A DNA stretch of 62,488 nucleotides, filler included, from Hausera hauseri (Eukaryota): assembly GCA_046269625.1 (NCBI GenBank). It is 14 parts of 14 records of this genome, joined end to end, with 100 filler letters (N's around TTAATTAATTAA, not from the genome) between each part and the next. Parts side by side here need not be neighbours in the genome. Positions count along the whole stretch, not along the records: positions 22,969 to 26,918 come from JBJURY010863853.1; 13 more parts are not named here. One strand, 5' to 3'. A model generated the notes under the pieces. It made no database searches, was not told where the DNA came from, and saw only the letters and a list, made by a program, of their open reading frames with translations. Position 1 is the stretch's first letter, and the number at the start of each line of letters is the position of its first letter. This document shows positions 5,262 through 45,004 of this stretch, in pieces. Both the position numbers and the translations under genes were made by a program.

Positions 5262-6305
5262 ATGAAATCGCCACCTTCAATCGACACCACTGAAAAGCCA
5301 AAATCTATTCCGATATTACGCTGCGCCGGTAAAGTCACACCTACCGGCTTCCCTTTCGGCCACCACTGTATTAAATTCTTTATCGACAGTCAAAACTCAA
5401 GCCAAACCTGGATTCAATTTCATTGCCTCTGGCTCCAATCTGCAAACATAACCGAATCTCTTTCAAAGGCCCATAGCCTTTTGTACTATTTATCAAATTC
5501 AATCAAGACGCGAATACCCAATCTTCTACAACTCTTCGAACATCCTGATCCTTACAAAGAGCTATACAACGCTGTTCTTAGGCTTACAGAGCCTTCTTTG
5601 GACTCCATTATTCAACGCTACTTCAATGAGAACACCCTAGGCAATCAAAAGCTTTTCCAATTCTTACAAATAGCTCTAAATAACTTGAAGGAACTTGGAG
5701 TAACACAGGAACACAACGCAGATCTTTTAAGACGTTATTTTCTCCAAGCTTTACCCTTACAAATTAGGGGTCCGTTAACCGTGATTGAAGAGTCATTAGA
5801 CCTTAATAAATTAACTGAGTTAGCTGACAAATCATATGAATTGTTGCAGATGCACACCCCCTCACTTATCTCTACTACCATCACACCATGTGACACACAA
5901 CAAAACACATTGCACAAACAAATAATTCAATTAAAAGCGGATAATAAAGCGCTGCTAGAAACCATCAACAGCATAAACAAAAAGTTAAACCAACTGACTC
6001 CCTCAAGACAAAATTTTCCTGGTGCCTCCCATTCTGATAGACCTCCACTGCGCTACAGACGATCGCCATCGCCCGTACGATCGTCTATTTGTTATTATGA
6101 TCATAATTTTGGAAACAACGCACACAAATGTTTCATTGGGTGCAAATTCTTTGCACCTAAATTTAAGTAAGGCAACAACATCTGCATCTACCATTCTAAG
6201 TTCAATACTAAGGCTATAAAATGTTTACCAGGATGCAATTTCAACTTACATGAGAATAGGCAATCCTCAACTAACAAACAAAATCAAATACAGCTAAAAA
6301 ACTAA
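5262..6305 (+). pseudogene. gag: gag with two CHCC zinc knuckles; premature TAA at 6168
   Basis: LLRRYFLQALP..LTELADK; CYYDHNFGNNAHKCFIGC (6090-6143) and CIYHSKFNTKAIKCLPGC (6183-6236). Confidence 0.88.
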
Positions 6306-6343
6306 TAACGCCGCTAGAGTTATCGGCCACCTCTAGCAAAGGC
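6296..6343 (+). promoter_or_regulatory. -1 ribosomal frameshift signal (gag-pol)
   Basis: A AAA AAC directly before the gag TAA; stem GCTAGAG(6313-6319)/CTCTAGC(6331-6337); loop GCC can pair with GGC at 6341. Confidence 0.7.
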
Positions 6344-9300: not shown

Positions 9301-9407
9301 GAGTTCTACATGGCAATCGACCATACATTCCTAACGACCTTTACACAGCTAAATTCGTTTGGTTAAAAAACCAAACTCCGGTCGGTTTTCAGCCACGGTA
9401 CACCGGC
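6306..9407 (+). pseudogene. pol: pol: protease, RT, RNase H, integrase (disrupted)
   Basis: DTGAA, ILGSDFL, YRPCGDYRQLN, MPFGL, YIDDILI, TDHKPL, VADFLSR, DQGPQ, SNGLLER. Confidence 0.95.
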
Positions 9408-9507
9408 NNNNNNNNNNNNNNNNNNNNNNNNNNNNNNNNNNNNNNNNNNNNTTAATTAATTAANNNNNNNNNNNNNNNNNNNNNNNNNNNNNNNNNNNNN
9501 NNNNNNN

Positions 9508-10281
9508 TAAAGCATCTAGATTGTCAATATGCAAAAAATTGCTAAGTATACTTAAGAAAAGGCACCATACAATTCTCTTTACTGCTGAGAAGCTTTATAC
9601 AGTCTATAGTGTTTCCAATAGTCGTACAAATCGTTACATCTCATCCAGGCTACGTAAGATTCTCCTTCCGTACTAAACACCCAGCCTCCGTAATAGTATT
9701 TGGATTGTTCTCATCTGATGGTAAGAAAATTGATTCAGTGTTCATTGAAAGTGGCCAAAAAATAAATACTGATGTCTACCTGAACATCCTAGAGAATTAC
9801 GTTCTTCCTAGGGTGAATGAGAACTATGGTTCATCACGCAATATTGTGCTCCAACGAGATGAGCACCAGTTCACACTGCAAAAAGAACCTAGACATGGTT
9901 AAGGATTAACATTCCAAATTTCTCGTTTAAGGAATTGTGGCGGCCCAGTTCACCAGATCTTAATACTTTGGATTGTAGCATATGGGTGTATGTCAGACAA
10001 AGTCTTGCGGACATTCTCAAAAGTGTTGCCACACTAAGAGCAACCATTATACACCAGTGGAGAGCTATTTCAGAAGACTATATTCGTACCGTTTGTTCAT
10101 CTTTTAGACCCCAGGTTGAAAATGTAATCAATGCTGAAAGAGGCCATATTGAATAGACTTTTTCAAGAATATGTAAATCATTATTTTTTGTAAATATAGC
10201 TTTTCCGAAGTGTTATTTTTCGAGTATCATTAAATCGTTTCTTTCAAATAAACAAGTCTCATTTTTTATCCGCATAAGGTA
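9508..10281 (+). mobile_element. IS630-Tc1-mariner transposon 3' part, maT/DD37D-like transposase pseudogene (CDS remnant ends 10156)
   Basis: KHPASVIVFG, GQKINTDVY.ILE.VLP, LQRD/GAPVHTAK, WRPSSPDLNTLDCSIW (third catalytic residue D); candidate terminus ending in TA near 10281. Confidence 0.85.
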
Positions 10282-10359
10282 TACGTGATGTACCGGTGTT
10301 TTGACTACTATTAGCCATAAGATATTAAAAAATTTTAAATTATTACAGTTGACTAAAAT

Positions 10360-11790
10360 CTACAACGATTTGAAGAACAAAAAAGAACAATGGAGAAATA
10401 ATGTACAAGAAATGTCAAACCCAAAAGAATAAATTTTCGACGGTTTCCACCGACTGACAACAGCCGCGTAGAGGCCCATCACAATTGCAGTAGAATCGAA
10501 TAACATGTGAAAACCATCGGAAATCAGTGCTAAACTATTTATGAGAAATCCATAAAACAATTCCACAAACGCAAATGCCAAATTAATACAAAGATACAAA
10601 AATATCCGTCTCGAATCGTCATCAAACAATATTTCCATCAACATCTTATGGAGATGACTGACAATCGGTGGTCCGGTACGATGGAGAAATTCTTCGCTAA
10701 CAGAAAATGTATACAGCGGCAAACCGCCTTTGGAAGAACCAACGAAATTTCCTTTGTTCGCCTTGGTACGATTGTAACTCGATGCCAATAATTTACAAGC
10801 ATAGGCAATCAAAAACAAACTAACGGCAACAACAAACGACAATTCATGATCGGTATTCTCACTATTCAAGATGACAATTTTATTAAGCAAAGTCCTGCTC
10901 GTTGTATACGGATGATTCCAGAAAACTGACAACAACATGCCAGCAAATCCCATTATCCATTTGCCATAAATGCCAATAAACTGACTACAGTATTTCGTCG
11001 CCGTTATAGAATTCACGTAAAAGTGAACGATGTTATTGCTGATACTGATGTAGAAAATAATGGCTTGAATGTGCCAACTTGATTGAGAAATGGATTCCGG
11101 AACGTTGAAAAAGTTTGCGTATGGATTGGTGAAATAAAATGCGAACAACAACCACGTAATTGACGAAATGATAGATGAAATTGCCGACAGTCGTTTATGG
11201 CCACCAACAACGTGACTGATATTTTTAGCAACAATTTTTTTACGACCCGTATGCAGTAACAGCCCCAAAACCAGGAAAATAACACCAGCTTTACGGTCCG
11301 ATAATCCAAAAGCGGAAAGAATTTTGTTGAATACCCGTGGAATCAGGACATTGTTATTCAATCCAGCATTAGGAACATTTTTCCATGAAGATTTCTCACT
11401 ATGATCGAAAAACAAAATGCGGATTACAGCGCAGATAAAAATAAAAGTTCCACGAGATTTTACCGTACTATTATTGTTTAAGAAGAAAAGACAACTTTAA
11501 ATAGACCGGACAATACTATTATTAACAGTAGATTGAGATTTGGATGTGAACCCACATAGAGGAAGTAGCTTTTCACTGACCTCTTGATTATGACAAATGA
11601 TAAATAGTAGGCACATTGTTAAAGGTGTATTGTAATCATTAATCGTTATATTTTCAACGAAATCTAGAGACTGGAATATAGTTTAAGAAGGTTTGTGAAC
11701 ACGTAATAAGGTATCGCACAACGAATGGTATGGACTAAACGTTTATATGCACGTAGAGCAAGTCCGAAACCACTTTTGCGACCATGTAAA
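10360..11790 (-). pseudogene. SLC30A5: Zinc transporter ZnT5-like, intronless, 3'-truncated
   Basis: KGNFVGSSKGGLPLY, DSRRIFLYLCINLAFAFVELFYG..NSLALISDGFHMLFD, SRWKPSKIYSFGF; long N-terminal membrane region typical of ZnT5; homology stops abruptly near 10410. Confidence 0.88.
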
Positions 11791-12341
11791 TAAGATTCAA
11801 GTATTTCCTTACTTACCAAACCCAGGGAAGACAATGTTGTGCCAGCAAAATAATAGGCAAGGTAATAAGGGAAAAGTAGATAAAAAATATGATGGATAAA
11901 ATGTATAGAAAAAATATTCGCCGACCGAAAAATGTATAATGGTGAATCTCACCTTATCGTGTACCGGTTTCTCCATGATCGGTGGTATCATGTGGTATTT
12001 TGGGGGCTGCAGATCGATGTCTTTGCAGGTCAACCGCGTCATCTTACGAGTAATCTGTCCGAATTTGTGTTGTAACTTTTGGAATACTTCAGTGGCCAAA
12101 TCTGATCGATTCTTTCGAATGTAAAGTATACCGAGTAGAGACACCGATTCTAAATCGTTGTTTCGATCGATATGTCGCTGGTGCTTTCGAACGACTGTCT
12201 TTCACTATAAGTCGGGGGCGTTCCATTGCAATAAATAGACATGTAAGTCACACATTTTGTATAAACCTTCTCCACAAAACAAGGTTCAGTAGTGTGAACA
12301 ACTTTCCTACCAGAGTCATCTTTCAATTCCAAAGTCGTTTT

Positions 12342-12816
12342 ACTATTCAGAGATTCTCCATCGGGCGCTTTTCCGCTAGTAATTACAAGTAGCTGATCTT
12401 TATTAATCACCTGGTTGTTACGTAATTCTATGTAGAACTTTATTTTCATATCTAATTTTAAATTGTCAATGGGATAAAGAGTACCGCTGGTGAGAATTAT
12501 ACTTCGAATATTACGCTTAACCAAACTTTCAGAACTTAGACATGGTATGACACGACAAAAATTACGAACACGGTTCCTTTGTAATGTATTAACTGTATTC
12601 CAACCTGTACTAGTAACTATGTCTTCATCGTGGATATAAATTTTGTAGGACGAAGACAATGTTTGATCGATGAAATTTGATGAAAAAGAATACTCATTAT
12701 CTTTGTGGCCCCCCATTGTGGCCGAATTAATTCTCGCTATAGGCAATGCAAATTTTTTACATTGAACGTTTGTGGCCAAAGACACTTTCTTGAACATATC
12801 TTCAAGTATGGATTGT
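12342..12816 (-). pseudogene. RTEL1: RTEL1 helicase internal fragment, fused in frame behind the ABCC fragment
   Basis: SYKIYIH..ESLVKRNIRSIILTSGTLYPI..IKFYIELRNNQVINKDQL..APDGESLNS matches RTEL1 VRSLILTSGTLAP..LENPHIIDKHQI..GPDGAQLSS. Confidence 0.8.
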
Positions 12817-14030
12817 GAACCATTGGTGACTTGAACAACCACGTCTTCAGATGATTTTTCTGTTATCTCATCCAAATAGTAGATTCCATTGTGACTGAGT
12901 TCTTCTTCAACAAGAAATTTACTTATTCGTCTTAATGACACGAATGCATTAACGGATTCAGTGATACTCCATGGCAGAATTGTCATTGGACTGCGAAGGA
13001 TATTAAACAAAGCCAGTTAAACGAAGGCTTTTTCTGCAGTTATTATTTCAGCTTCATGCGTATAAACGTAAACCAAAAATGATGAAAACATGACAAAAAT
13101 GGAATTATATCCCAAATAATATTGGATACTCCCCATATAACTGCATCCTTACGTATATATCCCACTTCACCAGAACGTAATTTATGCAATTTTGATGCGA
13201 ATGATAGTTCCCACGCATACATTTTCAATACCTTAATTCCTTTAAGTTCTTCAGTGATCAATTTTATTCGTTTGTCTTTCCATTGCAATTCCAGATCCGC
13301 AAAACGTTGCGACAATATCATCATCAATGCATTCACTGGAATGAAAAGTACTATGACGCCAACTCCAGCAAATATTGCATATGATAATTCGGTGTAAAGG
13401 AAAATCATTGCTACTGTGATTTGAAGAGTGCAGGATGGTAAGAACCAAGAATAACCTATCCAATCAACCACCCGTTCGGCATCTACACTCATTAGATTGA
13501 CGATTTCTCCAACAGTAAATTTATGTCGTGCTTCATTATTTAGTCTCAGAGCCTTTCGATAAAGTACTCCTACAATTGCACCATGAATTCTAAAACTAAT
13601 TCTCGTTTCAATAAACTCGCAATAATTATCCATTGTTGTACGAATTGTACCTATAATAAGGAAAAGCGCTGCTAAACTGTAACCATGCCAATGAACTAAA
13701 TTTCTGGCTTCAATATAAGACAATAAAAGTTTGAGCAAAAAAGGTTCAGTAAGCATTAGAATGTCTTGCAAGCATTTCAATAACCATGTAGCCAAAAGAG
13801 AAGGAAAATAGATTTTACCAAGACTAAGAAATAAAGTCCAGCTTGGATTTCGATATTTCTCAGTTTTCGTTTCTTGTTCGTTATTAACAGCATCCAACAA
13901 ATTTTCGCTGCTGTCCGATATATGTCTATTGGCGAAAGATCTAAAATAATCGAATTACATATAGACTTGGTAACGGTGTATAGATTATAAAGACTACAAA
14001 GGGATAGCCGCAGTTTGTGAACAAACATTA
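12817..14030 (-). pseudogene. ABCC1: ABCC1/MRP1-type ABC transporter fragment (TMD1), intronless
   Basis: LYRKALRLNNEAR..TVGEIVNLMSVDA, KDKRIKL..ELKGIKVLKMYAWELSF, FNILRSPM..VSLRRISKFL; ends before NBD1. Confidence 0.9.
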
Positions 14031-14177
14031 TATAAAGTAAAATAAAATTTTTATAATATTTAGAGTGTGATAATTAANNNNNNNNNNNNNNNNNNNNNNN
14101 NNNNNNNNNNNNNNNNNNNNNTTAATTAATTAANNNNNNNNNNNNNNNNNNNNNNNNNNNNNNNNNNNNNNNNNNNN

Positions 14178-17100
14178 TTTTATTGCGTATTTCAAGAATG
14201 GTGCAAACGGAGGAGACATTATACTGTGATGTAAAGACAAAATCAACTTTGTGATGCTGCTTTATTGACAAATGAGTTCGAAGGCAAATAGTAGGTTTAT
14301 TTGTGTCAATGTTAATAATAGTGGCGCGTTCCATCAATTCAGTGAGTGGTATAGCTGTAGTAATGGTGTATGTAGCCGTTATAGGTATTAGGAATGCTAG
14401 AAAGATGGGGAAAAAGATAGCCGAGTATCGGTTCTGAATGAAGTGTGCAGGGTAATATTATGACGTATTCATGGAGTGAGTTTTGTGCATAGCTGCCACT
14501 TTGGGCTCTTCTGTTGTAAGTGATTCTAACTCTTTCGCGTATGAAATCATTATATGATGTAGGTGCTCGAGTCACTCGTTGAACAGGCAGCTTCATATTT
14601 GTCAGGTCCTTTCTGGATAAAAAGTGTTTGTGGACGTACATCAACAACTTTGTACGGTCCTTGACTTGTACATGTTAATTTTAACGATTTACCTTTCTTC
14701 ATCGCAGGGTAGTGAACCATTATGTAATCTCCCATCTTATAAGTATGGGGTCATGCTTTCTTGTTAAATCTCTTTTTATATCCGGCTCTGTACTTTTCTT
14801 CAAACTGTTTTGCTTCGCGTTGAAAGTATTCGAGTCGTTTTAGCAAGATCTGGTACTGATCGTCCATGTGATCTCTGGTTAAAAAGGATTATGGTAATAA
14901 TTCCGTATCTAAGGTTAGTAAAGGTAACTGTCCGAACATTAACTCAGAGTAAATGATTAGTACTTTTGGTAGGTGTCGTATTAATTGCAAAGGCAGTAGT
15001 TTTTAAATGGTTATGCAAATCTTTTTGATCATTTGCTACCTTTGTAGAAAGGATACCTTGGATGGTACGATTCATTCTTTCGACCATACCGTTACATTGT
15101 GGGTGGTATGATGTCGTTAACAAATGTTTGCATTGGAATATTTTTGACAATTTCTCGAAGAATTCGCTAATGAAACATGGTGTACGGTCAGTTAACAACT
15201 GTTTCGGGGTGCCCAGTACAGCAATAATTTTGTAGAAAAAGGCTTCAGCAACTGTGCTACTGGTCATGCTTTTTAATGACACCAATACAACGTAGCGAGA
15301 AAAGTAGTCAACAATGGACAGTATATATTTGTATCCTGAGTCTGAAGCTGGGAAGGGTCCGGAGATATTTATTGAACACACTTTCATTGGCTTTTGTGCT
15401 TTAGGTAAGCTTCCTAAAAACGGCTTTACACGAAATCCTCTATCTTTCCTTGTGGCGCATATTTTACACGAACGTACCCATCCTTCAATATGCTTATTCA
15501 TTTGGGGCTAGTAATATTTTGCGGTTATACACTTCAAAGTCTTATTTAAAGATGGGTGTCCAGCTAAGCGTGAATCGTGTTCTTGCAACATGACAACCTT
15601 GATGGCCGGTGTGGGTACAAGGATCAGTTTTCTTTCTCCGACTCTTAGTCGTAAAATGCCATTTTCGATTTCAATATTTTTTCGGTTCTTTTCATAAAAT
15701 TTTTGAATGTGACTTGATATTGAGTCAATTAATTGTCCGCTGATTAATTGTTTGATTCGAACAATAAAGGGATCTTGGTTTTGTAATGTCTCGATATTTC
15801 GTTCTTGAATTTGGCGTTGTTCTTGCACCACATCGTTAATGATTTTCTCATTCAATTGTTTGTCATTCTCAATATATAATGGTTTATAAACTGCAGCTAC
15901 TATCTTATTGTATGGCATTCTCGAAAGTGCGTCGGCGTCTCTTTTCTTTGCCAGGACGATATTGATATTCAAGATCATAATTCAAAAGTTCCAACTTCCA
16001 TCTTTGGATTCGACTTGATACATGTCTATTGTCGGAGCATAAAGATAAGAGTGCCTTATAATCAGTAAATATTGTGATTTTATGACCGTAAACGTAATAC
16101 TTCTAATGTCGCAATCCATCACGAATAGCTAGTAACTCTAATTCAGTGGTTGAGTATTTTTGTTCTGCATTATTTAACCTACGTCCTTCGTAGGGGATTA
16201 CGTGTTCAGTTGCTTTTTCTGGATTTTGCTGGGCTAATATGTAACTAATAGCTTTTATGCTAGCATCGGTTTTCAGAATAAATGATAACGAAAAAGCTGG
16301 GTATCTCAATATAGGTGCTGATATCATTCGCTTCTTAATCTCGTCAAATGCATTTTGGTTTTTTTCTGTCCATTCTCATTTGTGATCCTTTCTTAAGAGT
16401 TTATATTGAGGCTGGTTAATTTCCGCAAAGTCAGGTATAAATGTAACATAAAATCCTCCCAAATCTAACCAAGCTTTCATTTCGTGGACATTGGTTGGTG
16501 GGGGATATTCCAATATTTTGGATATTAAATCAGGACTAGTCGGAATTGCTTGGTTGGAAACAACAAATCCAAGATATCTAACTTCTTTCTTGCACCATTC
16601 ACATTTTTTCGGATTTAACTTTAATTTCGCGAGTCTAATTCGGTCGAATACTTTTTTAAATTCAGCTAAATGCGCAGACCATGTCTCGGACGCGATGAGA
16701 ATGTCATCAATGTATGACAAACATCGTACTCCTTTTAGCACCAGGCGAATAAATTCTTAAAAGAATGTGGGTGCTGTTTTTAAACTAAATGGCATACAAG
16801 TGGATTGATAGACTCCGGTGCTGGTCTTGAATGCAGTTTTCCATCGATCTTCTTCAGCTACGAGGATTTGCCAAAACCCACTTTGTAAATCTAATGTGGT
16901 GAAATATTTACAATCTTTAAGTTCATCTATAATATATCGTATTCGGGGAATCGGATAAGCGTAATTCATCAGGTGTTTATTTAAGGTAACGTAATTTACA
17001 CAAACCTGGTTTAGTCGTATTAGCCTTCTTGGCCATAACTATGATAGAGGGCCATGGAGATTGACTTGGTTCTATAATACCTTTATTGAGCATGGATTGA

Positions 17101-18628
17101 ATTTGCTCCTTGACTTCCATTTGGAGTACTTTTGGAGGAGGGTACCATTTTGGTATAGGTTGTCGCAATAAATCTTTCTTTTCCTGTTAACGGGTCAATC
17201 ATAAATGATAATTTGAATTTGACTAAATCAATTCGTCCGATATCTGTTTCATTCTTTGCAAAAATATCAAGATACTCAAAATGAGATCTGATAAGTTTTC
17301 TAGATATTCATCTGATAGATTTTTCTTCGCTTTTGCGAGGACAACGTTTAATATATCTTCGGCATTTTCTTGTTCTGTGGTAGAGACGGTCGCGACTTTG
17401 TTATCGTAATTCTCATAAGTTGTTTCAAGGGCTAGTCCAATTTTTGTTTTTGTGAACAACGTGACATTTTGTGGTTGGGTTTAGAACTTCTACTGGAATA
17501 GTTCCTCCGATTACATTAACACAATAATGTGGTAATATATGCCCATTTCGAAGAGTTTTCAGCACAAACTCAATGACACTGTTATCTGGAAAAACTGTTC
17601 TAGCATGTATAACCATTCTAGAATTGGGTGGTATTTTCTCAACATGTCCTACCCAAATGTCTGTTTTGTTGTAATTAGGGGGTTTATCTTCATTATTTGG
17701 ACAAATTGATCCTGATTGTAAGTTTATGTGTACTTCCGATTTTTGCAACACATTCTTACCCAAAATGCATCGCTAATCCAAGGTAACCATTACATCAAAA
17801 GTTATCTTGACTTTCTGTCCACAAATCCATGGTTCACTTTCCTGTATCCATAAGGTTTACTGCATTGTTGAAATGCCGAAATAGTACCAAGCGAGTCTTT
17901 AGTAGCCAATTTTATTTGGCACTGTAATTTTTCTGGAATTGCATGTTTTGCTATTAACGCAACGTTGGCTCCGGTATCTACCATTGCATTCAGTTCAAAA
18001 GTATCAAAGTGGACTGTTGTATGTGGTCTATTTTCTCGTAATAGTTCAAGAAACGTTAATGCTTTGTTGTGGTCATCAATATGACCTTCCATCAAGGTGT
18101 AATTAGCCGAGTAATGTCGGTTTGTGCTGCTGGATAAAACGACCGTTAAACTCTGCAGTGATTGAGTATCATTTTCTGATACTTTGCGTTTATTCTTGAA
18201 TTCAGTTAAGTCTGGATAGCAACTGACATGCTTTATTGTTCTGTTGTTTATTGTTAAGATCGGAAATAGCCAAATGGAATCTTCTGTCTGATTGAGTTTC
18301 TATTGATCTAGTTAATTGATGATAAGGTACTGGGTGTAACGTACCCATTTTGGGTGAAACAGGTGGTGTTACTCGATTATTTTCCATATTCCGTGTAATA
18401 ATGGATTGACGTATCTCTTCCTGAGTATTTTGGCAAGCTACGCAATTTTATATAATCTTCTTTTTTGCGCAAGGATCCATTAAATCTGTTAGATTTGGTA
18501 ATTTACAAATTAGCATTGTTTTATTATCGTATGGTCAGCAGGTAATTTATGTTTATCCTTTTATTTGGCTTCATAAACTTGAATTTTCTCCTCGTATCCT
18601 TAGGAATCCCTGTTGTAGAATAGTACTT
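14178..18628 (-). mobile_element. pol: Large Ty3/gypsy-type element, pol region: pre-PR linker, PR (~17800-18095), dUTPase-like spacer (~17425-17650), RT (~16376-17168), RNase H (~15920-16330), IN (~14580-15600), post-IN extension
   Basis: VDTGANV; LDLQSGFWQI; YIDDILI; TDASIKAI..YSTTELELLAI; HDSRLAGH..CKIC; VDYFSR, TDR, HPQCNGMVERMN; GPY motif. Confidence 0.95.
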
Positions 18629-21251: not shown

Positions 21252-22750
21252 TTAGGTTCTGACACACGCCTTCTTCTTGACAAGATCAAATGTAGTGGGG
21301 AATAACTGTTTCGCCTCCTTGAGTTCTTCGGCAGGGCGGTTCTTTACTAAACTATCCAGTGAAGACGACATGAAACGAAAGCCGTTTATGAAGCGAAACC
21401 TGATTTTACGAACATGCTTGGTCAATGTGATGTATTTTTCCTCACTATTAGGGATCACATCAATGTTTCCTTCAATACTGCCCAGTTCCCGAACAATGAA
21501 ATGGGAATCATAGCCACTGAGATTATGGAACACTACAGGAACATGTGTACGTATTTTGCAACGTAGATTGCAGTTGTTTCATGCTGCGTCCCGATATCTG
21601 CCTATAAAATGGCAACGATCCCTGACTTTATGATTCTCCTTAGTGACTGATTTGGAGCACAAGTAACATGCTGTTGCCTTGCGCCATTCTTCTTGCTGCT
21701 TCGGCATGCTCATTGTATCCTTATGCTGCTGCTGCATATCTTCAATCCTATGAGCCATATCTTCAAGTCGCTTCATGAAATGAGCTGCTGCGCCTGGACC
21801 CCTAAATAGATATGGTTCACTGTCCAGTCCTTTCGCATACATGCAATATAATGACAGCTTATGATATTGGTATGCCGTTGTGCTGCTGTGTTGGGGATTA
21901 GGACTGCAACTCTGAACTGGGCGCCGGATTGATTCAAAGTCGTAATAAATAACTATTGGGACCTTGATCTTCTTCTCGAACTCACTGAATTCAATATAGT
22001 CCTCCTGGGGGAAATCGGGCTTGATACAATAATTATTGTTGTAGTACATATTGTGCTTTGCAAACTTCAACACTGCGACATCACCGCTGAAATGGGTTAA
22101 GCATCGTTTACATATTTCTATTTGTCCATGATGTTTTGTAATTTGTGATCTGACTAGCCGCTCAAAGTCTTTGATCCTAACATAATGTTTCTTTTCTCCA
22201 TCATCTAGTAGGAGCATATCCCTATGATCTTCCAATTCAGTATCGCATATCTGCAGAAGGTAGAATTTGTGCTCCTCATCCAATCCCAAGATATTGATGG
22301 AAATGTTGTTGATTCGACTAAACTTCTTGACTTCATCTATGGATGGAGGGAACTTGATACATTGGAAGTCATAGTTGTGCTGCACATCCTTATATAACCA
22401 AACTCGTGAAGAATAATTTTGACCCCTTACAAGTTTTGATAAAATGACATGCATGAAACACGTGTTGTCGATATTATTGACATTGACACATGTCTTTTTA
22501 TTAGCGATCCAATCAGGGAGCTGAATATATGAACTGCTCCGCATGGGAGAGTACTTGTAAACGAACACAAGCAATCTCTTGATGGTTGCCACAGTCCATT
22601 CACCCTTCTTATCCTAGCTGTCCCAGACTTCACTGATCAGCTTCTTGTGCGCCTCTTGCAACCATTCTGTTATATTGGTGTTTTCCAATATAGGTCTATT
22701 TTTGGTCTTGAAGGCCCTCTTTGAAGGCTTTTTTGCCGTCAACATTGATG
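21252..22750 (-). pseudogene. Adintovirus/Polinton protein-primed DNA polymerase B, N-terminal/exonuclease fragment
   Basis: SSYIQLPDWIANKK.CVNVNN.DN.CF, HYVRIKDFERL, VIYYDFES, C-YL-C..VRDRCHFIGRYR, FHNLSGYDSHFIV, RFMSSSLDSLVKN. Confidence 0.9.
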
Positions 22751-22968
22751 TATGATAAAAGTTATTAAGTATCATTTCTGCAGTTTATATTATTATAGTA
22801 GGGAGAAAATGGGGATTCGGGCACAGCCCCCCGGGGGGATTGGATCGATAAATCGATATTGCACATGTNNNNNNNNNNNNNNNNNNNNNNNNNNNNNNNN
22901 NNNNNNNNNNNNTTAATTAATTAANNNNNNNNNNNNNNNNNNNNNNNNNNNNNNNNNNNNNNNNNNNN

Positions 22969-23984
22969 AAGATACATCGTGGATCTAAAGTTGTCATTAC
23001 ATCTAAAATCACTTTTAATTTTTTTCCACAAATTATAGGTTCGCACTTCCAATACCCATATGGTTTCAGACATTGCTGAAATGCTGATGTAGTACCGGTA
23101 CATTCTTTTGGGGCCAATTTTATGTGTGACTGAAACTTTTCGGGTATTGCATGTTTTGCTATTAATGAAACGCTGTCTCCAGTGTCTACTGTTGCGTTTA
23201 TATCGAAAGTATCGAAGTGAACTGTCGTATGAGGCCGATTATCTCTTATCAGCTCGGGAAAGGTCAGTATGTCGTTATGATTATCTATATGTGGTTCCAT
23301 TAAGGTATAACTTGCTGCACAAAAATTTGATGATCCATTTGATAACATGACTGTTAAACTATCTGAAGATTGCGTATCATTTATAGGCTCTTTCATTTGT
23401 TGTTTGAGTTCGGTTAAATCCGGGTAGTAAATTACTCGTTCAGCAAAAACTCGCTGTATTTTAGCAGGTGGCATAGTTGAAATCAAATAATTCGTCCTTC
23501 CATTTGGTTGTTCGATATTTTTATCGATGGTTTGTTTATTTAATTTGACTCTATGATGAGGTATAGGTGGCATTGTGTTTAATTTTGGAGACATTGGTAA
23601 TGATACTCTATTCTCTTCCATACTTTGAGTAATAACTGGTTGAAGTATTTCTTCTTGCAAATATCTAAAAATACTGCGCAGCTTTATGTATTCTTCTCTT
23701 GTAGCATACGGATCATTCAAGTCAGATAACTTTGGTAGCCTATCAATTGTTTGTTCGTCAGTTGGACGGGTTTTCTTTTCATACGGAGTGTCTGGCACTA
23801 CATAATTGCTCTTTAATTTTCTTTTCTTCACTGTAAAAAGTTTGCGGATTTTTCTGTTCTTTTTCTTGGAAATATTCGGTTTTGAGTAGTCTCCAAGTGT
23901 ATTGTCATCATCATCTGAGCTTGATGAATTATATTCCAGTATAGAATTGCCAGTCTTAATCCACATGTTTTTCCAATTTACCAC
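22969..23984 (-). CDS. Start of pol of the large gypsy family: ~250-aa linker plus aspartic protease (cut by contig end)
   Basis: RPHTTVHFDTF..VDTGDSVSLI (DTG at 23178-23186); closely homologous to 17800-18628. Confidence 0.88.
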
Positions 23985-26106
23985 GCCATTGTTTTATATG
24001 GTAAGCTTTAATGAATTTACCAAGTGGGGAAAATAGAGCACCAATTGTTCTCAGAGATAATCCTGTCAAATTGTAAATTTCGTATGCATTTAATATTGAA
24101 TTGATATAAACTTTCGAAATTTGCATGATAAAGTAAATAGCTAGAAATCCGGAAGCTACTTGTCCAAATTTTAAAAATTCACCCTACATTTTGTTCCATA
24201 AACTGGAAACTACTTTTGTATAGGCATCGGGCATCCACAATCGATCCCATTTTCCTTCTCCAGCAGAATCATCAATTACTCTGTGAATTCCTCTATTTAC
24301 TACTTGCTCTCGTTGTCTTGGATAGGCTAGAAATTTTACAAATGAGTCAATTTCTTTTTTACTATACAATGCTGACTTTGATACGTCAGTAAACATGTTT
24401 GTTTCAATGGCATGTCTGAGGTTAGTCATCGTCAACTTTTTTGGTTGTTCCTTTACTCTATCTCTATCCGGTAGTCTAACCCATAAGTCTTGATTATCGT
24501 ATTTGATAAATGGCTTGTTCAGTGCTGTACAGTTTTGAATTTCCGTTGGAATTGTGTGTGGTGCCAGTAATACTCTAGTTATAGGCTGAACATATCGAAT
24601 TTCATCTTTATACTTAACTGGTATTTCTGAGTAGCAAGGGGTACCAGTGATTAATGGTAAGTCCAATCTCTTGCATTTGTAGGTGAACAGCACTTCTCCT
24701 AGGACTCTGCCTTGGATTCCTTCGCCAAATGGCAATGTTATTGTTATCATCTCTGGATTTGAAGCGTAAATGGCCAATCCATTTCGTAATGTCTCAAAAT
24801 TGATTTTACAGAAGTTCTACATTGTCTCAGAATATATTTCTTCTATTGTTTTGTGGGTGAGATAAAATAGGAAATCATCTTGATTAGCGATGTAGTCAGC
24901 AATGTTCACTAATTGTGCTCTGTTAACTGGCGAATTATCTGCCTGTGCAATCTCTTTTTCCAATATGAAATAATTTTCATAGTTTGTACTGAACACTTGT
25001 TGTCCACATTTAACGATAACGTCTTGTTGTATAAATTTAACTCCTTCTTTTATATCCTTGGATATTACAATTTTAGGGGTTCTCACTTCTGGAATCACTT
25101 GAGTGTTTGTATTTTCAAAGTTTGTTTCATAGTGTCGAGCGTAACATTTTCCTGTCCTTACATTAAATTCGACTTTTCGAATCTGTACCAATGAGCATTC
25201 ATAGCTCTTGGGCACTGTCCATACTATAGTAGATGACTTCGTGTGACAATGTCCAATTTATAATCTGCAGAAAGATACATTTATCATTGTATTTGTACTT
25301 GTTTCGAAGATAAAGGTATTTTCTTTGATTTCGACTTCATATTGGTCGTGCATTACTACTCCTGAAATAACACCTTTGCCAGTATCAAAACTTCCAACTT
25401 TGAAATTATCTTTTTCATCCTTATGTCCCGCTATCCATTTCTCTTGCTGAGAAATTTGGCCTTTAATTGCTGTTAGTAGTATGTCTCCATATTTCAGTTC
25501 TTGAGTTTCAGTTGCATCTCGTCAATAAGTTGGATTAATCGACAAATATCTAGGCATCGTAGTAGGCTGTATTAAGCAATCATGGTGTAAATGGCCACAG
25601 TAAGAAATGGTGCAAAATACTCGCAATGAGCATTCTAATCCTTTTATGTAAAGCGTGGTTTTATCGTAATAAATAAATAGGTTTTGTAATATTGTTTCTA
25701 GTTTCCTCGGAAGTGCATCCGGGCATGATAGTAAGTCCATGAGTGAGTAGTAACTTCCTTCATAAATTTTGTCACAGTCATATGCCAATATGGTTCCTGA
25801 CCTTTTGAAATTAGAGAATAAAACCAGTATATATAGAATGAGTTGTAAGAAGAATCCGTTAGATTTTGTTCCGTCTGTCTTTTGTATATCTTCCTGAACT
25901 TGTTGCTTCATTGTCTCCATAACGACTTGAACTACTTCCTCTTGAGGTGTATTCTGAGTGATTTCATGAATGGCTTTTTCTAAAGTAGTTTGGCCTACTT
26001 CTGGTTGAGTTATTTTTTCATTTCGTAAGAACAAATCTTTCCATTTACCATATTGTGGTATAATTATCTTGCTAGCTTGGATTATTTTTCCAGCTGTTAT
26101 TTTCAA
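23956..26106 (-). pseudogene. env: Chuvirus/herpes gB-like (class III) fusion glycoprotein (env), ~630 aa from internal signal peptide at ~25854
   Basis: Hydrophobic signal FFLQLILYILVLF, then ILAYDC..YSLMDLLSC..LEC..SYCG; GEVLFTYKC..CYSEIPV..YVQPITRVL..NC; C-terminal membrane block FLKFGQVASGFLAIYFIMQISKVYINSILNAYEIY; a few stops and frameshifts. Confidence 0.82.
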
Positions 26107-26344
26107 CTCTCATTCACTTGCTGCATGCTGAATAGACACTGGTATGAACTGACAGAATTAGTTTAGACCTTGTTATTTATTACTATGAAATAATTAGTAG
26201 TTTTTTTAATCCCAGTCTGATTAAACATGTTTCACTCATAATGTCTGTGAGTAATTTAACGATTAAGATGTTATCATGGTTACTTGCAAGTTACGTGAAA
26301 ATATATCCTTTTCAAAATATGTTTCATTTTATTTTTGCCTACAG

Positions 26345-26422
26345 GCCATGTTGATGAGCACATGCTTACAGAGCATGGTGGACGAGCTGGTGATGATCAA
26401 GCAAGGCAAAAAGTTTAAGACA
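26345..26422 (+). CDS. SNX17: Internal exon of sorting nexin-17 (FERM-like C-terminal region)
   Basis: tttttgcctacag|78 nt|gtaagt, phase 0; AMLMSTCLQSMVDELVMIKQG matches SNX17 AIMMSICLQSMVDELMVKKSG. Confidence 0.85.
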
Positions 26423-27018
26423 GTAAGTGAATGATGCATTCAGAATGCCTTGAAAGTAATAAATGTTAATATGTGTATTGAAATATGGTATTATGACTTT
26501 AGTATATGATAAGACAATAAACTTGGCTTCCTTTTTTCAACCTCCCTGATAAAATCTTTAATAGCTGTTCTAAAATGCTATGTTAGATCATGAATCAACA
26601 GTAAACTGGAGTTGTCAGTGGATACAAACCGAGGGGGATTCTGAGGAGGAGATCGTAACACCCATGAGTCTGCTTAGAATGTATACCTTAGTACACAGGT
26701 AAATGTTGTCACCTGGCTGTTTTTTTCTCCCTGCAGCATCTCCGGCATCTAATCCATGACCACAGACATCCCCCTCATTACCGCCAAATTACATGCAAAT
26801 TTTCCCCCCAAATAAATGAGTTTTAAGTACTTGACAACCTGTCAGCCTTCGAATATTGAGACGTTCTGACGGCTAGATAAACAATCAACAATAATCACTC
26901 TATGCAAATTTGATATTTNNNNNNNNNNNNNNNNNNNNNNNNNNNNNNNNNNNNNNNNNNNNTTAATTAATTAANNNNNNNNNNNNNNNNNNNNNNNNNN
27001 NNNNNNNNNNNNNNNNNN

Positions 27019-31114: not shown

Positions 31115-31620
31115 AGAAATGACATTAGAGAGATATGCCCAGCAATGTGACAAATATAAAAGGACTAATGATCTCAATAATCGGAATAGAACCGATAATC
31201 AAGTCAACAGACGATTTAGTAATAATAACCAAAATCGAGGTTTTAATAATAGTAATTAATATGCGCACAATAGGAGTCAAAGCAGTTATAGAAATTTTAG
31301 TAATAATCGGAATACATACGGTTCGTATAATAAACCAAGTTACAATTTAGATAGGAACCAAGGTAGTTACCGACTCAATAATAAATACACCGATAATCGG
31401 AATAAGGATAACAGATATGACAGAGATAACAGACAAACATCACGGAGCCAGAATAAGAATATAAACAGATCAAAATCACCCGTAAATGAGAATGCCCGAC
31501 AAAGTATTGGTCACAATGGGAATTTAATTTGTTTTACATGTGGAAAAGAAGGACATATTGCTAGGTCATGTCTAAATCCTAGAAGTGTTACATTCTCTGA
31601 ACCGACTAAAATAAGTATGA
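31115..31620 (+). pseudogene. gag: gag C-terminus: N/R-rich region plus CCHC zinc knuckle
   Basis: CFTCGKEGHIARSC at 31530-31571. Confidence 0.8.
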
Positions 31621-31735
31621 TTAGAAATAATTTAGAAGCCATCTATGGTAAACGAGGTGATATAAGCATTATCATCGAAATGCGAGATCTACGCAGATCC
31701 ATAAGAAACCTAGGCGAAACTACTATCCTCAAGTC

Positions 31736-34700
31736 ATGAAAGCTAGAAAAGAATATAAAAAGAAATTGCTATTAATTAAAGTCTATCATGGATTAAGAGA
31801 ACCACAAACCGATGAAGAATGGACTTTGGCACCAAATAATACTAATATGGCGCGTACGAAGTATATTCCGCAAGAAATAGCAAAATCGGAGAAACTAATG
31901 ACATCTCAGAATGTAGATTTAGACGCAGAATCCGAGAAAAACAAACCAGGTGGAACAACAGATGAGATAGAAAGTGAATTTATTGGGCTTTTAGTTCTTA
32001 AGATAACCAAGAATAGAGGTAGAAGCCTATCGCCTAAGAGAAAATTCAAGACTCGTTCAAGATCTCCCATTAAAAGGGATACAGAAGAAAATGGAGATTT
32101 CTATACTGCTATTCTAAGAGATGACTCGCCCTCAGATATTTCTATTACGCCTATAGGGATTCCAGAAGTGTTAGAAATGCCAGAGATAATAAATATTAAT
32201 GACGAAGTCAATGAAATTTGTCCGCTTCCAGCCAGTGAGGAAGAAACGGACGATAATAATGATCCTGATGCAAAAAAATGGAAAGTTCGACGTTCATGGA
32301 AGAATGCCGATGAATTAAAGAAAATGAAAATTAGATGCCATGATCCAGATATACTCCGACACAATTTAGAAAGGCTTAAACAGATCAGTGAACAAACAGA
32401 CATATCTGGTAAAGAACAACAATTTGCGGGAAAATTATACGAAAGTTTAAAATTATGCAGTAAAGGAAAACTGTACAAAGAAATCGAATTAAAACAACCT
32501 GAAGAGATGCCACAAGACACGTTGATGAAATAGAGCCGTGAATTAGAGTCATGGATCAAAAGTGGAGTCGAATTGTCGGAAGGATGGAGCAAAGACGAAG
32601 TTAGTATCGGTATAAAAGTCGCTGAAGTGCAAACACTACTATCTACACTATAAGCTAATCACAAGTTGAAGAGAGTAGCCCGTAATTTAGAACGTAAGAT
32701 GGAGGAAATCCGTTATGCAACAATCAACCGGTTTAGGGAAAAACCGGTTGGCAATCGAAGAAATATCGATTTAGAAATATTGGGTGTAGACCCGATTGAT
32801 ATTCCTCCCTTAATGGAAATGATAAAAATTGCATTTCTTGAACCCAGGCGATGTGCGGACTTAGAGAGTCGCATTAAAGTAGAGAATGAAAGAAGGTCAC
32901 AGATTAACAGTTTAAGAAATCGAATTATGTATATAAATAACGAAAAAACCGAATATATAATAAAGGCTTGTATCATAGAATTCGACGAATATAAGAATGA
33001 ACTCAATTATGTTAGCCAATTTATGAACTTTATAAAAGGCCCAGACGATGAGTTGAAAGATGCCTATAAGACACTAGACAAAGTAATATTAGCCAAGCCA
33101 ATAATCGCCAATCAGTTGTCAGAATGGTCCGAATTAATAAAGAAATTAATTAAATTAATAGAAGAATGTAAGAAAGAATTTCCGGAAAGCGAACCATCTG
33201 TAAAAAAGCAACTAGATGAAGGTGCACTTAACTTAACCACCATATAAGCAAAAATAGACAGCCAAACACGGTTCGAATCATTACGACGATTAAATTTTAT
33301 GAAGAAGAAGCAAAAAAGACAATGTTAGAAGAAATATATAAAATGATCAAAGAGACAAACTTTGCAGAAAAATGAAATATGACTTGCAATTTTTACTCGA
33401 AGTTAAGAAGCATCCGACAAGAAGGAATCCAATATTTAACAGATAGACCTATCAACAAGATTTCGATCCAAGATATTGAAACTTTGGATATTTGTCCGGG
33501 ACATAGAGCGGCTCTAGCAGAAACAATAAGATTTTTGCTAAACCACGAGAATGGATAGCCGGTACGAATCAGAAGTGCCATACTGAATTGACGAAAATAA
33601 GAAAAAACGAACGTCTTAATGTTGAAGAATCTAACTTCGTAAAGAAATTGCTGGATGCAATGGATCCCGACTCAAAAATTATAAAAGAGATGTATGGGCT
33701 AGCTTACTTATTGGTGGAAATGGCGGAGATTAATGATGAACGGATGAGGCAATTAATGCCCAAATTACAACAAGTTGAAGAGACGTGCATCAGAACGAAA
33801 CAAAGAGCAACGAGCCTAGATGAACTAATAAAAGACTTTGAAAGATATCGGAACAAGTACGCTTTTACGGAATCAGAAATCAAAAATAAGAGAGAATTCG
33901 TGCAGCGTTGGCAAAAAGACGTAATTGTTGAACTAACCGATTATCACCAGAAAGGATTCATCAATTCTGATAAATTAGGCGAACTACTAAAAATGATTCA
34001 ATATGCCTGTGGAAACGGAATAGGTTTCCGGACTACACAGATGAAAGAAATACAACCAAAATTGAGCGAAATTTGAGAAAATGTGCAAAGGACGAACACA
34101 GCTTTAGTAGACTATTGACTCCCAGATATTGGGAATGAACCAGAATGGGATGCTTATTTAGAAGAAATAACGGCCGAAAATCCGGTAATACCAGTACACC
34201 TCGACGAAACAGAAATGTATCCGCAGAACAGAAAATATAAGGTAGAGATGCTCCTGGACTCAGCGTTAACCGAGAAGGACCTGATGGAATCAATTAACGC
34301 AAATATTTCTGAAAATAAGCTCAGACACTTATTCCGACTCTGACTAAATTATGCAATGAAAACACAATTTACAGCACGGTGCCGAAACTTTTAATAAAAA
34401 AGTACGCGAAAATCTTGAAGGATAAGCCTGAGCTTACGATGAAAATAATGATATTATCTGAGTGGATGGAAGAAAAAAATATGTAAGCTACCTACTTATT
34501 CCTACGTAAAGGATTTAAGAGAATGGTTAGTAAATAACGGCGGAACAAAAGAACTAAATTACAGATTTTACTTTAGAGAAAGAATACTCGACGATTTAGA
34601 ACAATTAATAAACGTAGGAATCATTCCCGGCGAAACAAGTAGGATAGTAGTAACAATAACTAATGAACAGAAGAAAGAGGAAGCCACGCGGAAGGCTAAA

Positions 34701-35340
34701 ACGGAACAGTGCGTAGGACAAATCATGGAAGTAAGAGACGCCGCAATGTACTTCGAATATTTACAAACGGACAAAGACAAGGAACAACCCGACAAGAATC
34801 TAGTGCTGCTAAGTGGAATAACAGCCAATGCTCCGAGACCAAAACGCTTAGTCGGCAGACCTAGGAAACTACGAGAAGAAATAGACTATAATGGCGAATT
34901 AATTAGAGAGTAAAGACAGATGTCGATCCCTGCATTTAGCCCAGATAATAAAGAGTTAAGCGAGTTAATGAAGAATTTAATACGAATTTTAAATTATTAA
35001 AGCCTTCGAGGAGATACATTAAACGCTGAATAAAGAGCAATATTCAACGCAGCCAGGACAAAGAGAAGTTCGCGTTTCAAACTGTCAAAATGTAGTCTAA
35101 CTGACGACGCAGTAGTCGAGTAAATTATGGTGGAAAATACGACAGAAGAGCTAATAAAAGTATTACTGTACTTGGCAATCAATCACGAAAATGAACTAAA
35201 TCGAGCTACAAGTTTGGCACGAAGAGCATTTAGTAAACTTCCGTGTGAAGCAAATTAGCTAAAATTGTTCGACAAAGAAGAATACAAAAGAAACAGCAAT
35301 AATTGACTCGGAGACATTATACGCAATCTAACGACAACAG
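31736..35340 (+). pseudogene. Long decayed K/E-rich, probably helical region of unknown function between gag and env
   Basis: Chain of same-strand ORF pieces split by single stops or frameshifts; no PR, RT or IN motif. Confidence 0.65.
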
Positions 35341-35377
35341 ATAATAACAATAGGAAGAACGAATCCAAGCGGTTCAA

Positions 35378-35914
35378 TTGGGTGCCGTTACCGTCTACGA
35401 TTGTTATAGATTTAAACTTAGACAAAATTATTCACTAACGGACTTAGAAGCATGTGAGGACGCCAGACCACACAAATTGGAAACAAAAGAAAAGGGTTAT
35501 TTCCTATACAAACAACAAGAGTTGATATCTTTGGATGGCATGGAATGTATGCTGAGACGATCCCGTAGCATTTTCCATTGTGGGTTAATGCAGTGGACAT
35601 TCCTCGATAATCAAACCAACAACTCCTCCGATCCCAATGAATTTGGAAATTCAACACTGCAAGCAAGCCCGAGAAACCGGAAGACTGAAATGGGGTAATA
35701 TGGAATTAGAAATGCAACCCGGAAGAATAATCAGACCGTATAAGATAGTAATCGGGATGCTAGATATACATAAGGGGCACTTTAGTAGAACGGAATACGA
35801 TACCGGGAAAGGTTTGGAAGCAAATGTAACAGTAGTAGACTTTTACGAATTGGAAATGCTAGTCCAAAAAGTAATGTTCCATAGTGTCACTAAGCTATAT
35901 ACTGAGCATCAAAA
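35378..35914 (+). pseudogene. env: N-terminus of chuvirus/gB-like glycoprotein (paralogue of 23956-26106)
   Basis: VTVYDC..NYSLTDLEACEDARPHKLET..GMECMLR..FHCG aligns with ILAYDC..YYSLMDLLSCPDALPRKLET..GLECSLR..SYCG. Confidence 0.8.
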
Positions 35915-42600: not shown

Positions 42601-43269
42601 ATTTTCCCCGCCATTAAGATAGCCAGCTAAGTACAATAGCTTTAGTAATGATGTGAAATGAGCGTGGGTCAAAGATGGTAAAGATAATACTTATTTTCGA
42701 TCGAAAGGAGAACCTGTGAAATTTCGGAAAGATAGTGTGAATGCACTCATTTATCTCAAAACTGCTGACAAGAAATCCGTTAATACAGAATTTAGAATCA
42801 CTCAACATTTCACTGTTGCGAAGTAAACGATTAAAATGACTACTTTTAATTTCGTTACTTTTGACTGGAAGTAGTTAGACTTTATTGGTATTTTGTCCTT
42901 CTTCGCATTTATTTGAAGCTTCGTTTCAACCTTCCATTTGATGTACATAGAATATAAAGAGTTTAGCCAGTTTGTGTTTGATTGTGTGTTTAAGTCAATT
43001 GTAATAGTACCATTGGTGGTCATTGGAGATTCTTTAAAGAAGTTATATGATATGAGTGTTGTATATGGTACACAAGATGTTTCTATATATGTATTATTTA
43101 ATTCAAGTGTCTTAGAGGTTAACATATCTATTGTTGGACAATTTTTATTTTTCTTGAAACCATTGTTCCCACCAATTCCTAAAGTGCCATTAACGATTTC
43201 CCCGAACCCATGTACCTCTAAACCCATCCAGATACCATAAAACCCAATTCACTGAACTCCTGAAGCCTA

Positions 43270-44570: not shown

Positions 44571-45004
44571 ATAGGTAGAGGTAACCTGTGTGAGTATACA
44601 GGGTGCGTGCGCTATTTTCGGATTGACTTTAAAGTATAACCACAACGTAGTGTTTACTTTTAGAAATTCGCTTACCAGANNNNNNNNNNNNNNNNNNNNN
44701 NNNNNNNNNNNNNNNNNNNNNNNTTAATTAATTAANNNNNNNNNNNNNNNNNNNNNNNNNNNNNNNNNNNNNNNNNNNNGCCTTTCCGCTATAAAATGAA
44801 AATCAATAATATTAATATGACACATAAACTGGCAGGTGGAGTACTTGATGTACTATCGTTCAGTGAAATACTCGAGTCAAGTGTGCTTATGGTTACGGTT
44901 GCTAAGGCACTTTTTCACTTTTCACATATTTGTCACTGTGCAGCGTAGAGTTGATGGAATCGACTGGGGTCAAGTGCAGGTAGATAGAGCACATCGAGAT
45001 GCAT

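What the first reader, a model, noticed from the sequence alone, without database searches (positions are those of the whole stretch)
22969..26106. Ty3/gypsy element with a chuvirus/gB-like fusion glycoprotein placed upstream of protease
Seen: on one contig a near full-length glycoprotein (signal, AYDC..CG, CYSEIPV, C-terminal TM block) ends at 23956 and overlaps the frame that runs ~770 nt further into the DTG protease. That linker plus protease is homologous to the one heading PR-RT-RH-IN at 14178-18628. The signal peptide is internal, with >80 in-frame residues before it. Known: retroviruses, errantiviruses and env-bearing BEL/Pao elements (including those that captured chuvirus glycoproteins) generally carry env 3' of integrase. 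Inference: an independently enveloped gypsy lineage with env-before-pol order, possibly as one polyprotein cut by signal peptidase and PR.
Basis: partly seen in the sequence, partly recalled or inferred. Interest (0 to 1): 0.88.

Follow-up and report, generated by a model that had tools for sequence, protein, structure and literature searches.

The report
Decayed envelope-before-pol gypsy retroelement
This is a broken copy of a jumping gene in an animal genome, with a virus-type membrane-fusion protein gene placed before its protease gene; the two were likely made as one long protein that is cut afterwards, and this gene order is already published for flatworm, nematode and bryozoan elements.

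Summary
On one 3.95-kb contig, a glycoprotein frame (26109-23956, minus strand, four internal stops) matches 596 of 653 positions of Pfam Monjiviricetes_fusion (E 2e-58). Its model matches chuvirus G (E 2e-28) and herpes gB (E 3e-11). A linker and a DTG aspartic protease follow directly; they are homologous to the head of a Ty3/gypsy pol on another contig.

Chance adjacency is unlikely. In 10 of the 12 homologs over 1000 aa, protease or RT follows this env inside one ORF, and none has env after integrase. The window's env nests in that clade, public runs cover env to protease as one repeat family, and a second contig shows gag-then-env.

The order is not new. Planarian Burro elements have env in frame between gag and pol (Arkhipova and Yushenova 2019). 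GAG-ENV-POL gypsy elements with gB-type env are reported in nematodes, bryozoans and flatworms (Chary and Hayashi 2026).

This copy is a decayed fragment, cut off at its 5' end beside a host SNX17-like exon, with no LTR in view. Host phylum and pol placement stay open. Verdict: new member of a known kind, low interest.

The parts
25855..26109 (-). 85 in-frame residues upstream of the env signal core (end of the gag-side part of the polyprotein); the copy is cut off at about 26136
   Evidence: tblastn of polyproteins P0005 and P0006 extends to 26004 and 26034; family-level depth ends after 26136
25786..25872 (-). internal signal-like hydrophobic segment before AYDC
   Evidence: hydropathy; 9 of the 12 long relatives with this motif have a hydrophobic segment ending within about 10 residues of it
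24187..25785 (-). class III fusion glycoprotein ectodomain (Monjiviricetes/chuvirus G, gB-like), with stops at 25524, 25260 and 24819
   Evidence: PF24664 E 2e-58; model pLDDT 82; fold matches
23956..24186 (-). stop at 24186, membrane-proximal region, TM block (about 24174-24091) and short tail, ending at the stop 23958-23956
   Evidence: aligns with the TM and tail of relatives
23294..23993 (-). low-complexity linker in the protease frame; the frame break between env and pol lies in the 23993-23956 overlap
   Evidence: homology to 18567-18313; contigs of related copies differ in length at this junction (tables 4 and 5)
22969..23293 (-). aspartic protease (DTG at 23186), running off the contig end
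   Evidence: RVP E 0.0014; 62% identity to the protease at 18218-17796
14178..18628 (-). separate contig: decayed linker-PR-RT-RNase H-integrase of a sister Ty3/gypsy subfamily
   Evidence: best solved-structure match is Ty3 RT, E 1e-61
31115..35914 (+). separate contig: gag zinc knuckle (about 31530), about 3.8 kb of decayed ORFs, then the start of a second glycoprotein of this family (35354-35914), with no pol between
   Evidence: zf-CCHC E 1e-5; PF24664 E 1.5e-6; tblastn to the finding's env E 2e-19
26345..26422 (+). host SNX17-like exon with splice signals; the element fragment lies antisense, likely in the intron before it
   Evidence: AG and GTAAGT in the sequence; PDB SNX17 E 0.0076; Pfam SNX17_FERM_C E 0.016; both weak

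Best explanation
This is a decayed fragment, cut off at its 5' end, of a multi-copy Ty3/gypsy element of the published gag-env-pol kind: a class III (chuvirus G / herpes gB-like) env gene lies directly before the protease gene, and in the active element the two were likely one polyprotein. Inferred working: Gag and accessory domains stay in the cytosol. The internal hydrophobic segment would act as a signal sequence cut by signal peptidase just before AYDC, threading the ectodomain into the ER. The TM block would stop transfer, leaving linker-PR-RT-RH-IN in the cytosol on the Env tail until the element's own protease frees them. Shown here: fold, gene order, repeat family, single-ORF relatives. 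Inferred: topology, cleavage, particle formation. This copy cannot make Env (four stops and a frame break).
For: - PF24664 covers positions 5-600 of 653, E 2e-58. Fold matches: chuvirus-type G E 1.9e-28, herpes gB E 3e-11, VIA Z up to 8.9 with rmsd 3.9 over 154 residues of gB domain IV.
- Of 150 listed homologs, 12 exceed 1000 aa. In 10 of 12, PR and/or RT follows env in the same ORF; 4 of 12 go on to integrase; 4 of 12 have a Pfam gag marker before env; 0 of 12 have env after integrase. P0016 is zinc knuckle-env-PR-RT-RH-IN in 2146 aa.
- The window's env nests with 13 polyprotein-type envs, SH-aLRT 100, apart from 25 standalone glycoproteins and a BEL-type after-integrase env.
- Related contigs cover 22969-26136 in every bin at summed depth 1501-11849 in X1 and 30-341 in X2, against 0-4.5 at 26137-26532. 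Four contigs in two runs that cross the env/pol junction differ from the window in length there. Three of the four stops are listed as read otherwise by nearly all depth.
- A second contig has gag, then env, with no pol between.
- Literature.
Against: - No contig or read was seen that spans gag, env, pol and LTRs of this family; no listed Logan piece spans the stretch.
- In X1 only 4.2 of 326 summed depth at 23956 shows a listed length difference, so some copies may share the break.
- Pol trees do not place the window's pol with the six env-pol polyproteins: unresolved, weakly outside (85/84). A joint clade is only not rejected (AU p 0.68).
- The closest envs are only about 30% identical, and the window's env has a long branch (1.46).
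- X1 may be the window's own source and then is not independent.
- The host phylum is unknown.
Confidence: 0.87

Rival explanations
1. Same gene order, but env and pol are separate ORFs in this family: env starts at its own Met (25920 or 25911) on a subgenomic RNA, and pol is reached by programmed frameshift or splicing at the 38-nt overlap.
For: The window copy has a stop at 23958-23956 and a different frame for protease. Two Met codons lie 19-22 residues before the signal core. Most X1 depth at 23956 shows no listed length difference. PMC13524379 never uses 'polyprotein', 'fused' or 'in frame' in its main text, so it does not settle the point.
Against: No X-XXY-YYZ slippery site lies in the overlap; the nearest is at 24080. 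In 10 of 12 long relatives env and PR/RT share one ORF. All X2 depth crossing 23956 (2 contigs) and 2 X1 contigs differ in length at the junction. The frame upstream of the Met codons is still open and aligns with polyproteins.
Confidence: 0.08
2. A chuvirus glycoprotein EVE that happens to lie next to an unrelated gypsy protease, or was captured only by this one copy.
For: The best predicted-structure matches are chuvirus and xinmovirus G proteins. Only one contig in the window shows the env-protease junction.
Against: The env groups with polyprotein envs, not with standalone glycoproteins. Family-level coverage runs across the junction. No long repeat or LTR-like segment lies between the genes. 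A second contig has gag before env.
Confidence: 0.02
3. The glycoprotein has been domesticated by the host (a syncytin-like gene in an SNX17 intron).
For: It is near full length and sits beside a host exon.
Against: It has four internal stops. The family is highly repeated, and the three listed stops are not shared by most related contigs.
Confidence: 0.01

Closest known systems
GAG-ENV-POL 'ancient errantiviruses' with HSV/gB-type ENV, especially the Platyhelminthes C1a group (Smed_errantivirus_1-6; PMC13524379)
   Same: Ty3/gypsy pol, gB-type env, env before pol, multi-copy. By eye, the window's domain I-II cysteine layout and its KCG..V..TNY end resemble the six C1a rows and not the ten Bryozoa C2b rows. 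The exact motif [VI]YQESDF, seen in three C1a rows, is present in P0003-P0007 of the window's env clade.
   Different: The window copy is decayed and lacks that motif. Its host phylum is unknown. It was not aligned to the published sequences. LTR and primer-binding site were not seen.
Burro/GYPSM1 giant planarian gypsy elements (PMC6431247, section 7)
   Same: Env in frame between gag and pol in one ORF. Relatives in the window's env clade show Bcl-2 before env (P0007, E 0.00096) and zinc knuckle-ubiquitin-Bcl-2-env (P0018, weak: E 0.031 and 0.055). Contig 31115-35914 has 3.8 kb between gag and env.
   Different: No Bcl-2, ubiquitin-like, BIR or MATH domain was detected in the window's copies. 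Element length is unknown. That paper describes the env type more loosely.
Non-canonical nematode ERVs (Sacco et al. 2022; known here only as cited in PMC13524379)
   Same: Metavirus with env before pol. P0243 (UniRef, Panagrolaimus davidi) has PF24664/PF00606-PR-RT-RH-IN in one ORF.
   Different: Its env is far more distant (E 5e-11 to the window's profile), and its RT does not group with the window's.
Mosquito BEL/Pao elements with chuvirus glycoprotein (Dezordi et al. 2020; as cited in PMC13524379)
   Same: Same Pfam glycoprotein family.
   Different: BEL pol, with env after integrase. The BEL-type hit P0099 (DUF5641, then env) falls among the standalone glycoproteins.

Membership tests
Ty3/gypsy (Metaviridae) | pol order PR-RT-RNase H-integrase with gypsy-type RT | tested here: met
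   On the sister contig 14178-18628: RVP, RVT_1, RT_RNaseH_2, Integrase_H2C2, rve in this order; best PDB match Ty3 RT, E 1e-61. The finding's own contig holds only the protease, linked by 62% identity.
Ty3/gypsy (Metaviridae) | flanking LTR pair, primer-binding site, target-site duplication | not testable with these tools
   The copy is cut off at about 26136 and runs off the contig at 22969; no long direct repeat; no genome held.
GAG-ENV-POL HSV/gB-type errantivirus | class III gB-like ectodomain between a signal and a TM segment | tested here: met
GAG-ENV-POL HSV/gB-type errantivirus | env upstream of pol | tested here: met
   family-wide coverage
GAG-ENV-POL HSV/gB-type errantivirus | gag upstream of env in the same element | tested here: inconclusive
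   Missing from this truncated copy; seen on contig 31115-35914 and in 4 of 12 long relatives.
GAG-ENV-POL HSV/gB-type errantivirus | placement in the published POL tree and cysteine-bridge class | not tested
   Published sequences were compared only by eye and by short motifs; my trees hold unnamed relatives only and are unresolved.
Burro/GYPSM1 | env in frame with gag and pol in one ORF | tested here: inconclusive
   Broken in this copy; met by 10 of 12 long relatives for env-pol; junction contigs point to a copy-specific break.
Burro/GYPSM1 | accessory domains (Bcl-2, ubiquitin-like, BIR, MATH, ankyrin) and a size near 30 kb | tested here: inconclusive
   None detected in the window's decayed, partial copies; Bcl-2, ubiquitin (weak) and ankyrin hits in relatives.
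BEL/Pao with chuvirus glycoprotein | BEL-type pol with env after integrase | tested here: not met
   Env precedes a gypsy-type protease; the sister pol is gypsy; the env tree separates it from P0099.

The most novel reading that the evidence does not exclude
A deep-branching, high-copy gag-env-pol lineage with several subfamilies in one genome. Its env is of the planarian/Burro clade but its pol comes from another gypsy lineage (an env swap), or its host lies outside nematodes, bryozoans and flatworms. It would extend single-polyprotein enveloped retroelements to a new phylum.
Probability: 0.2. Interest if true: 0.45.

Novelty: new member of a known kind. Interest (0 to 1): 0.2.

Why it matters
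It adds one more family, seen here only as decayed copies, to a published but little-studied class of retroelements that place a class III fusogen inside the gag-pol polyprotein. I saw no experimental work on how such a polyprotein is threaded and cut in the passages read (6 searches). Intact relatives such as P0016, P0002 and P0152 bear on that question better than this copy does. The finding would matter more if the host proves to be in a new phylum or the pol a separate lineage.

Tried and rejected
- Word-seeded protein searches with the glycoprotein found nothing: 0 of 3509 and 0 of 4333 candidates. The index-free search then found 774, so the blanks reflected sensitivity.
- No whole genome is held.
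- A locus search with P0002 in genome contigs gave 21 pattern matches and none was confirmed. The env alignment was too variable for a metagenome scan. So no DNA context or LTRs of relatives were seen.
- No RNA holder was listed.
- Four pol trees did not resolve the window's pol.
- The window's protease, linker and upstream 85 aa gave no phmmer hit at iE < 0.05 among 153 relatives.
- Small profiles of the Bcl-2-like and pre-signal regions found nothing significant in the window's frames (best iE 0.083 and 0.53).
- No tRNA genes.
- CYSEIPV and AYDC do not occur in the eLife supplement of env sequences; the rows seen there cover domains I-II only.
- Sacco et al. 2022 is not held.
- Earlier scan notes: none.
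- No ESM Atlas result was obtained for the glycoprotein.
- Rejected: a programmed -1 frameshift at the overlap (no slippery heptamer); BEL/Pao identity; host domestication.

Full report
Setting. The window is a string of 14 contigs of 3.9-5.1 kb joined by N44-TTAATTAATTAA-N44 spacers, so neighbours across spacers are unrelated. No whole genome is held. The sequence is from an animal-type genome of about 36% GC: it holds gypsy elements, Polinton-like polymerase fragments and a spliced SNX17-like exon. The phylum was not determined.

Observation. Contig 22969-26918 carries, on the minus strand, one frame from 26109 to a stop at 23958-23956, with four internal stops at 25524, 25260, 24819 and 24186. 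Read with X at the stops, it matches Pfam PF24664 Monjiviricetes_fusion over profile positions 5-600 of 653, E 2e-58. A hydrophobic stretch precedes AYDC (25785), 85 codons after the previous stop, and a TM block lies at about 24174-24091. A second frame opens at 23993, overlaps the env end by 38 nt and reaches DTG at 23186. Pfam sees this protease only weakly (E 0.0014). It is 62% identical over 141 aa to the protease heading the pol on contig 14178-18628, the linker also aligns, and the DNA is 70% identical over 468 nt. Differences fall 36/30/76 on the three codon positions, as expected for two coding lineages. That pol has PR-RT-RH-IN order, and Ty3 RT is its best solved match (E 1e-61).

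Fold. A model built on 110 aligned sequences has mean pLDDT 82 and pTM 0.63. All 42 listed PDB Foldseek rows are herpesvirus gB (best E 3e-11; whole-chain TM-scores only 0.2-0.4). The best predicted viral structures are chuvirus- and xinmovirus-type G (E 1.9e-28, TM up to 0.65). VIA-align gives Z 8.9, rmsd 3.9 over 154 residues to gB domain IV, and Z 6.7-6.8 to vesiculovirus G; these Z values are middling taken alone. A profile search of PDB sequences also ranks gB first (E 0.001). The class III fold is supported.

Is the order a family trait? The index-free search found 774 proteins at E <= 0.001 and listed 150; 12 of the 150 exceed 1000 aa, and they take 12 of the top 17 ranks. I scanned these 12 and 7 others with Pfam. 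In 10 of 12, protease and/or RT follows env in the same ORF (the protease of P0008 is weak, E 0.0018). Five of 12 reach RT, 4 of 12 reach integrase, and 4 of 12 carry a gag marker before env. The other two (P0014, P0018) end at or inside env. None has env after integrase. Cluster members P0152 (4844 aa) and P0273 (3003 aa) also run env-PR-RT-RH-IN. In these proteins a hydrophobic segment usually precedes A[YF]DC internally, and the TM and tail align with the window's env up to about 23960. In a quick tree of 41 chosen rows (window, 13 polyprotein-type envs, 25 standalone glycoproteins, 2 others), the window's env lies inside the polyprotein clade at SH-aLRT 100, on a long branch of 1.46. Nearly all these relatives are unnamed; P0002 is filed as a Flavobacteriaceae MAG protein, probably animal DNA in a bin (inference).

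Copies in public runs. Three runs hold part of the stretch (shares 0.32, 0.19, 0.08), and all three were laid. X1 gave 6118 contigs, mostly 80-95% alike, and X2 gave 687. Summed depth is 1501-11849 (X1) and 30-341 (X2) in every bin from 22969 to 26136, including the junction bin, and 0-4.5 from 26137 to 26532. Summed depth is not copy number, and X1 may be the window's own source, but the step marks a repeat family and a copy cut off at about 26136. Among the 40 rows shown (806 not shown), three of the four stop codons are read otherwise by nearly all depth. Four contigs crossing the env/pol junction (two in X1, two in X2) differ from the window in length there, in the way expected if those copies lack the frame break. 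Against this, only 4.2 of 326 X1 depth at 23956 shows a listed difference, and no listed piece spans the whole stretch. Just beyond the cut lies a 78-nt exon-like segment (26345-26422, +) resembling SNX17 (E 0.0076 and 0.016), so the fragment likely sits antisense in a host intron. No LTR is in view.

Second element. Contig 31115-35914 (+) has a gag zinc knuckle at about 31530, then about 3.8 kb of decayed ORFs with no pol domain, then the start of another glycoprotein of this family (PF24664 E 1.5e-6; 33-40% to the first). This is a second case of gag-then-env order in this genome.

Pol placement. By score, the top 3 of 28 rows for both RT-RNase H and integrase are env-pol polyproteins. Trees do not confirm it. 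FastTree on 119 rows and a quick tree on 39 rows leave the window's RT without starred support. Holding it with the six env-pol proteins is not rejected (p-AU 0.68; the constrained tree is 13 log-units better). A careful RT tree on 30 rows puts it weakly outside (85/84), and RT plus integrase on 29 rows leaves it in a polytomy beside the six (84/98). Rows were subsets of the 117 hits plus the polyproteins, chosen by score and spread. The pol tested is from a sister subfamily, not the env-bearing copy.

How it likely works. Shown: gene order, fold, repeat family, single-ORF relatives. Inferred from the anatomy, and by recalled analogy to alphavirus and flavivirus polyproteins: the internal signal threads the ectodomain into the ER and is cut before AYDC; the TM block stops transfer; Pol stays in the cytosol on the Env tail until the element's protease releases it, which would couple Env and Pol amounts. 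The rival of separate ORFs with recoding finds no slippery heptamer in the overlap.

What is known. [quoted passage not shown] It notes decaying fragments in another planarian. PMC13524379 was read as abstract and outline, passages, section 5 part 1 of 2, section 6, section 14, section 22 and supplement rows; its figure supplements could not be read. It reports that elements in Nematoda, Bryozoa and Platyhelminthes carry HSV/gB-type ENV as GAG-ENV-POL and are not monophyletic. Its table lists 36 nematode, 10 bryozoan and 9 flatworm elements (from the term counts), one with 215 copies. Sacco 2022, Grohme 2018, Jurka 2007 and Dezordi 2020 are known here only as cited. PMC11410931 (passages) adds nothing on env. 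The window's env clade links to these groups: the motif [VI]YQESDF, seen in three published planarian C1a rows, occurs in P0003-P0007, and P0007 and P0018 show Bcl-2(-like) domains before env. The window's own env lacks that motif and shows no Burro accessory domain, so it works like these elements and belongs with their env clade, but membership of Burro proper is not shown.

Verdict. Real, correctly described, and a decayed new member of a published kind. Interest 0.2. The residual novelty is an unplaced pol and an unknown host phylum (probability 0.2, interest 0.45 if true).

Noticed in passing
proteins P0152, P0004, P0006, P0003, P0005, P0015: Relatives carry several aspartic-protease domains in tandem after env (six matched stretches in the 4844-aa P0152, with ankyrin and C2H2 domains between them). 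P0152, P0006 and P0013 also have long extensions after integrase with hydrophobic segments, and P0152 and P0006 a further DTG-like motif there.
   Followed up: no
window 58346-62488 (-): Integrase C-terminal tail related to the pol contig (53% over 51 aa), followed in frame by about 300 aa and then 3 kb of further ORFs, including a RING finger at 58733-58432 (E 4.4e-9). It looks like the accessory 3' part of a large element of this group.
   Followed up: partly
window 9508-14077 and 1-4241: Closely packed, intronless, partly chimeric fragments of host-type genes: ABC_membrane (E 2.6e-25), cation efflux (E 3.9e-14), Solute_trans_a (E 6.7e-23), RasGEF (E 4.4e-19), and a helicase-like piece (recalled likeness) fused in frame behind the ABC piece. 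Possibly mosaics of retro-copied mRNAs.
   Followed up: partly
window 21262-22754 and 46978-48448: Two copies, 85% identical, of a protein-primed DNA polymerase B fragment (DNA_pol_B_2 E about 1e-5); Polinton-like by recall.
   Followed up: partly
window 4342-9407, 40173-44679, 53859-58245: Three decayed gypsy elements related to each other and distant from the finding's pol; no glycoprotein match on these contigs.
   Followed up: partly
window 49086-53758: Whole contig is a 30-nt tandem array, 156 copies, 77% matches, with many open frames.
   Followed up: no
protein P0002: A 2627-aa env-PR-RT-RH-IN retroelement polyprotein is filed at NCBI as a hypothetical protein of a Flavobacteriaceae MAG; likely animal DNA in a bacterial bin.
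   Followed up: no
protein P0074: A chuvirus-type glycoprotein fused directly to a gypsy-type RNase H domain in one 797-aa ORF.
   Followed up: no
window 45012-45385 and 46490-46857: Inverted repeat pair, 80% identical over 375 nt; possibly the ends of a DNA transposon.
   Followed up: no
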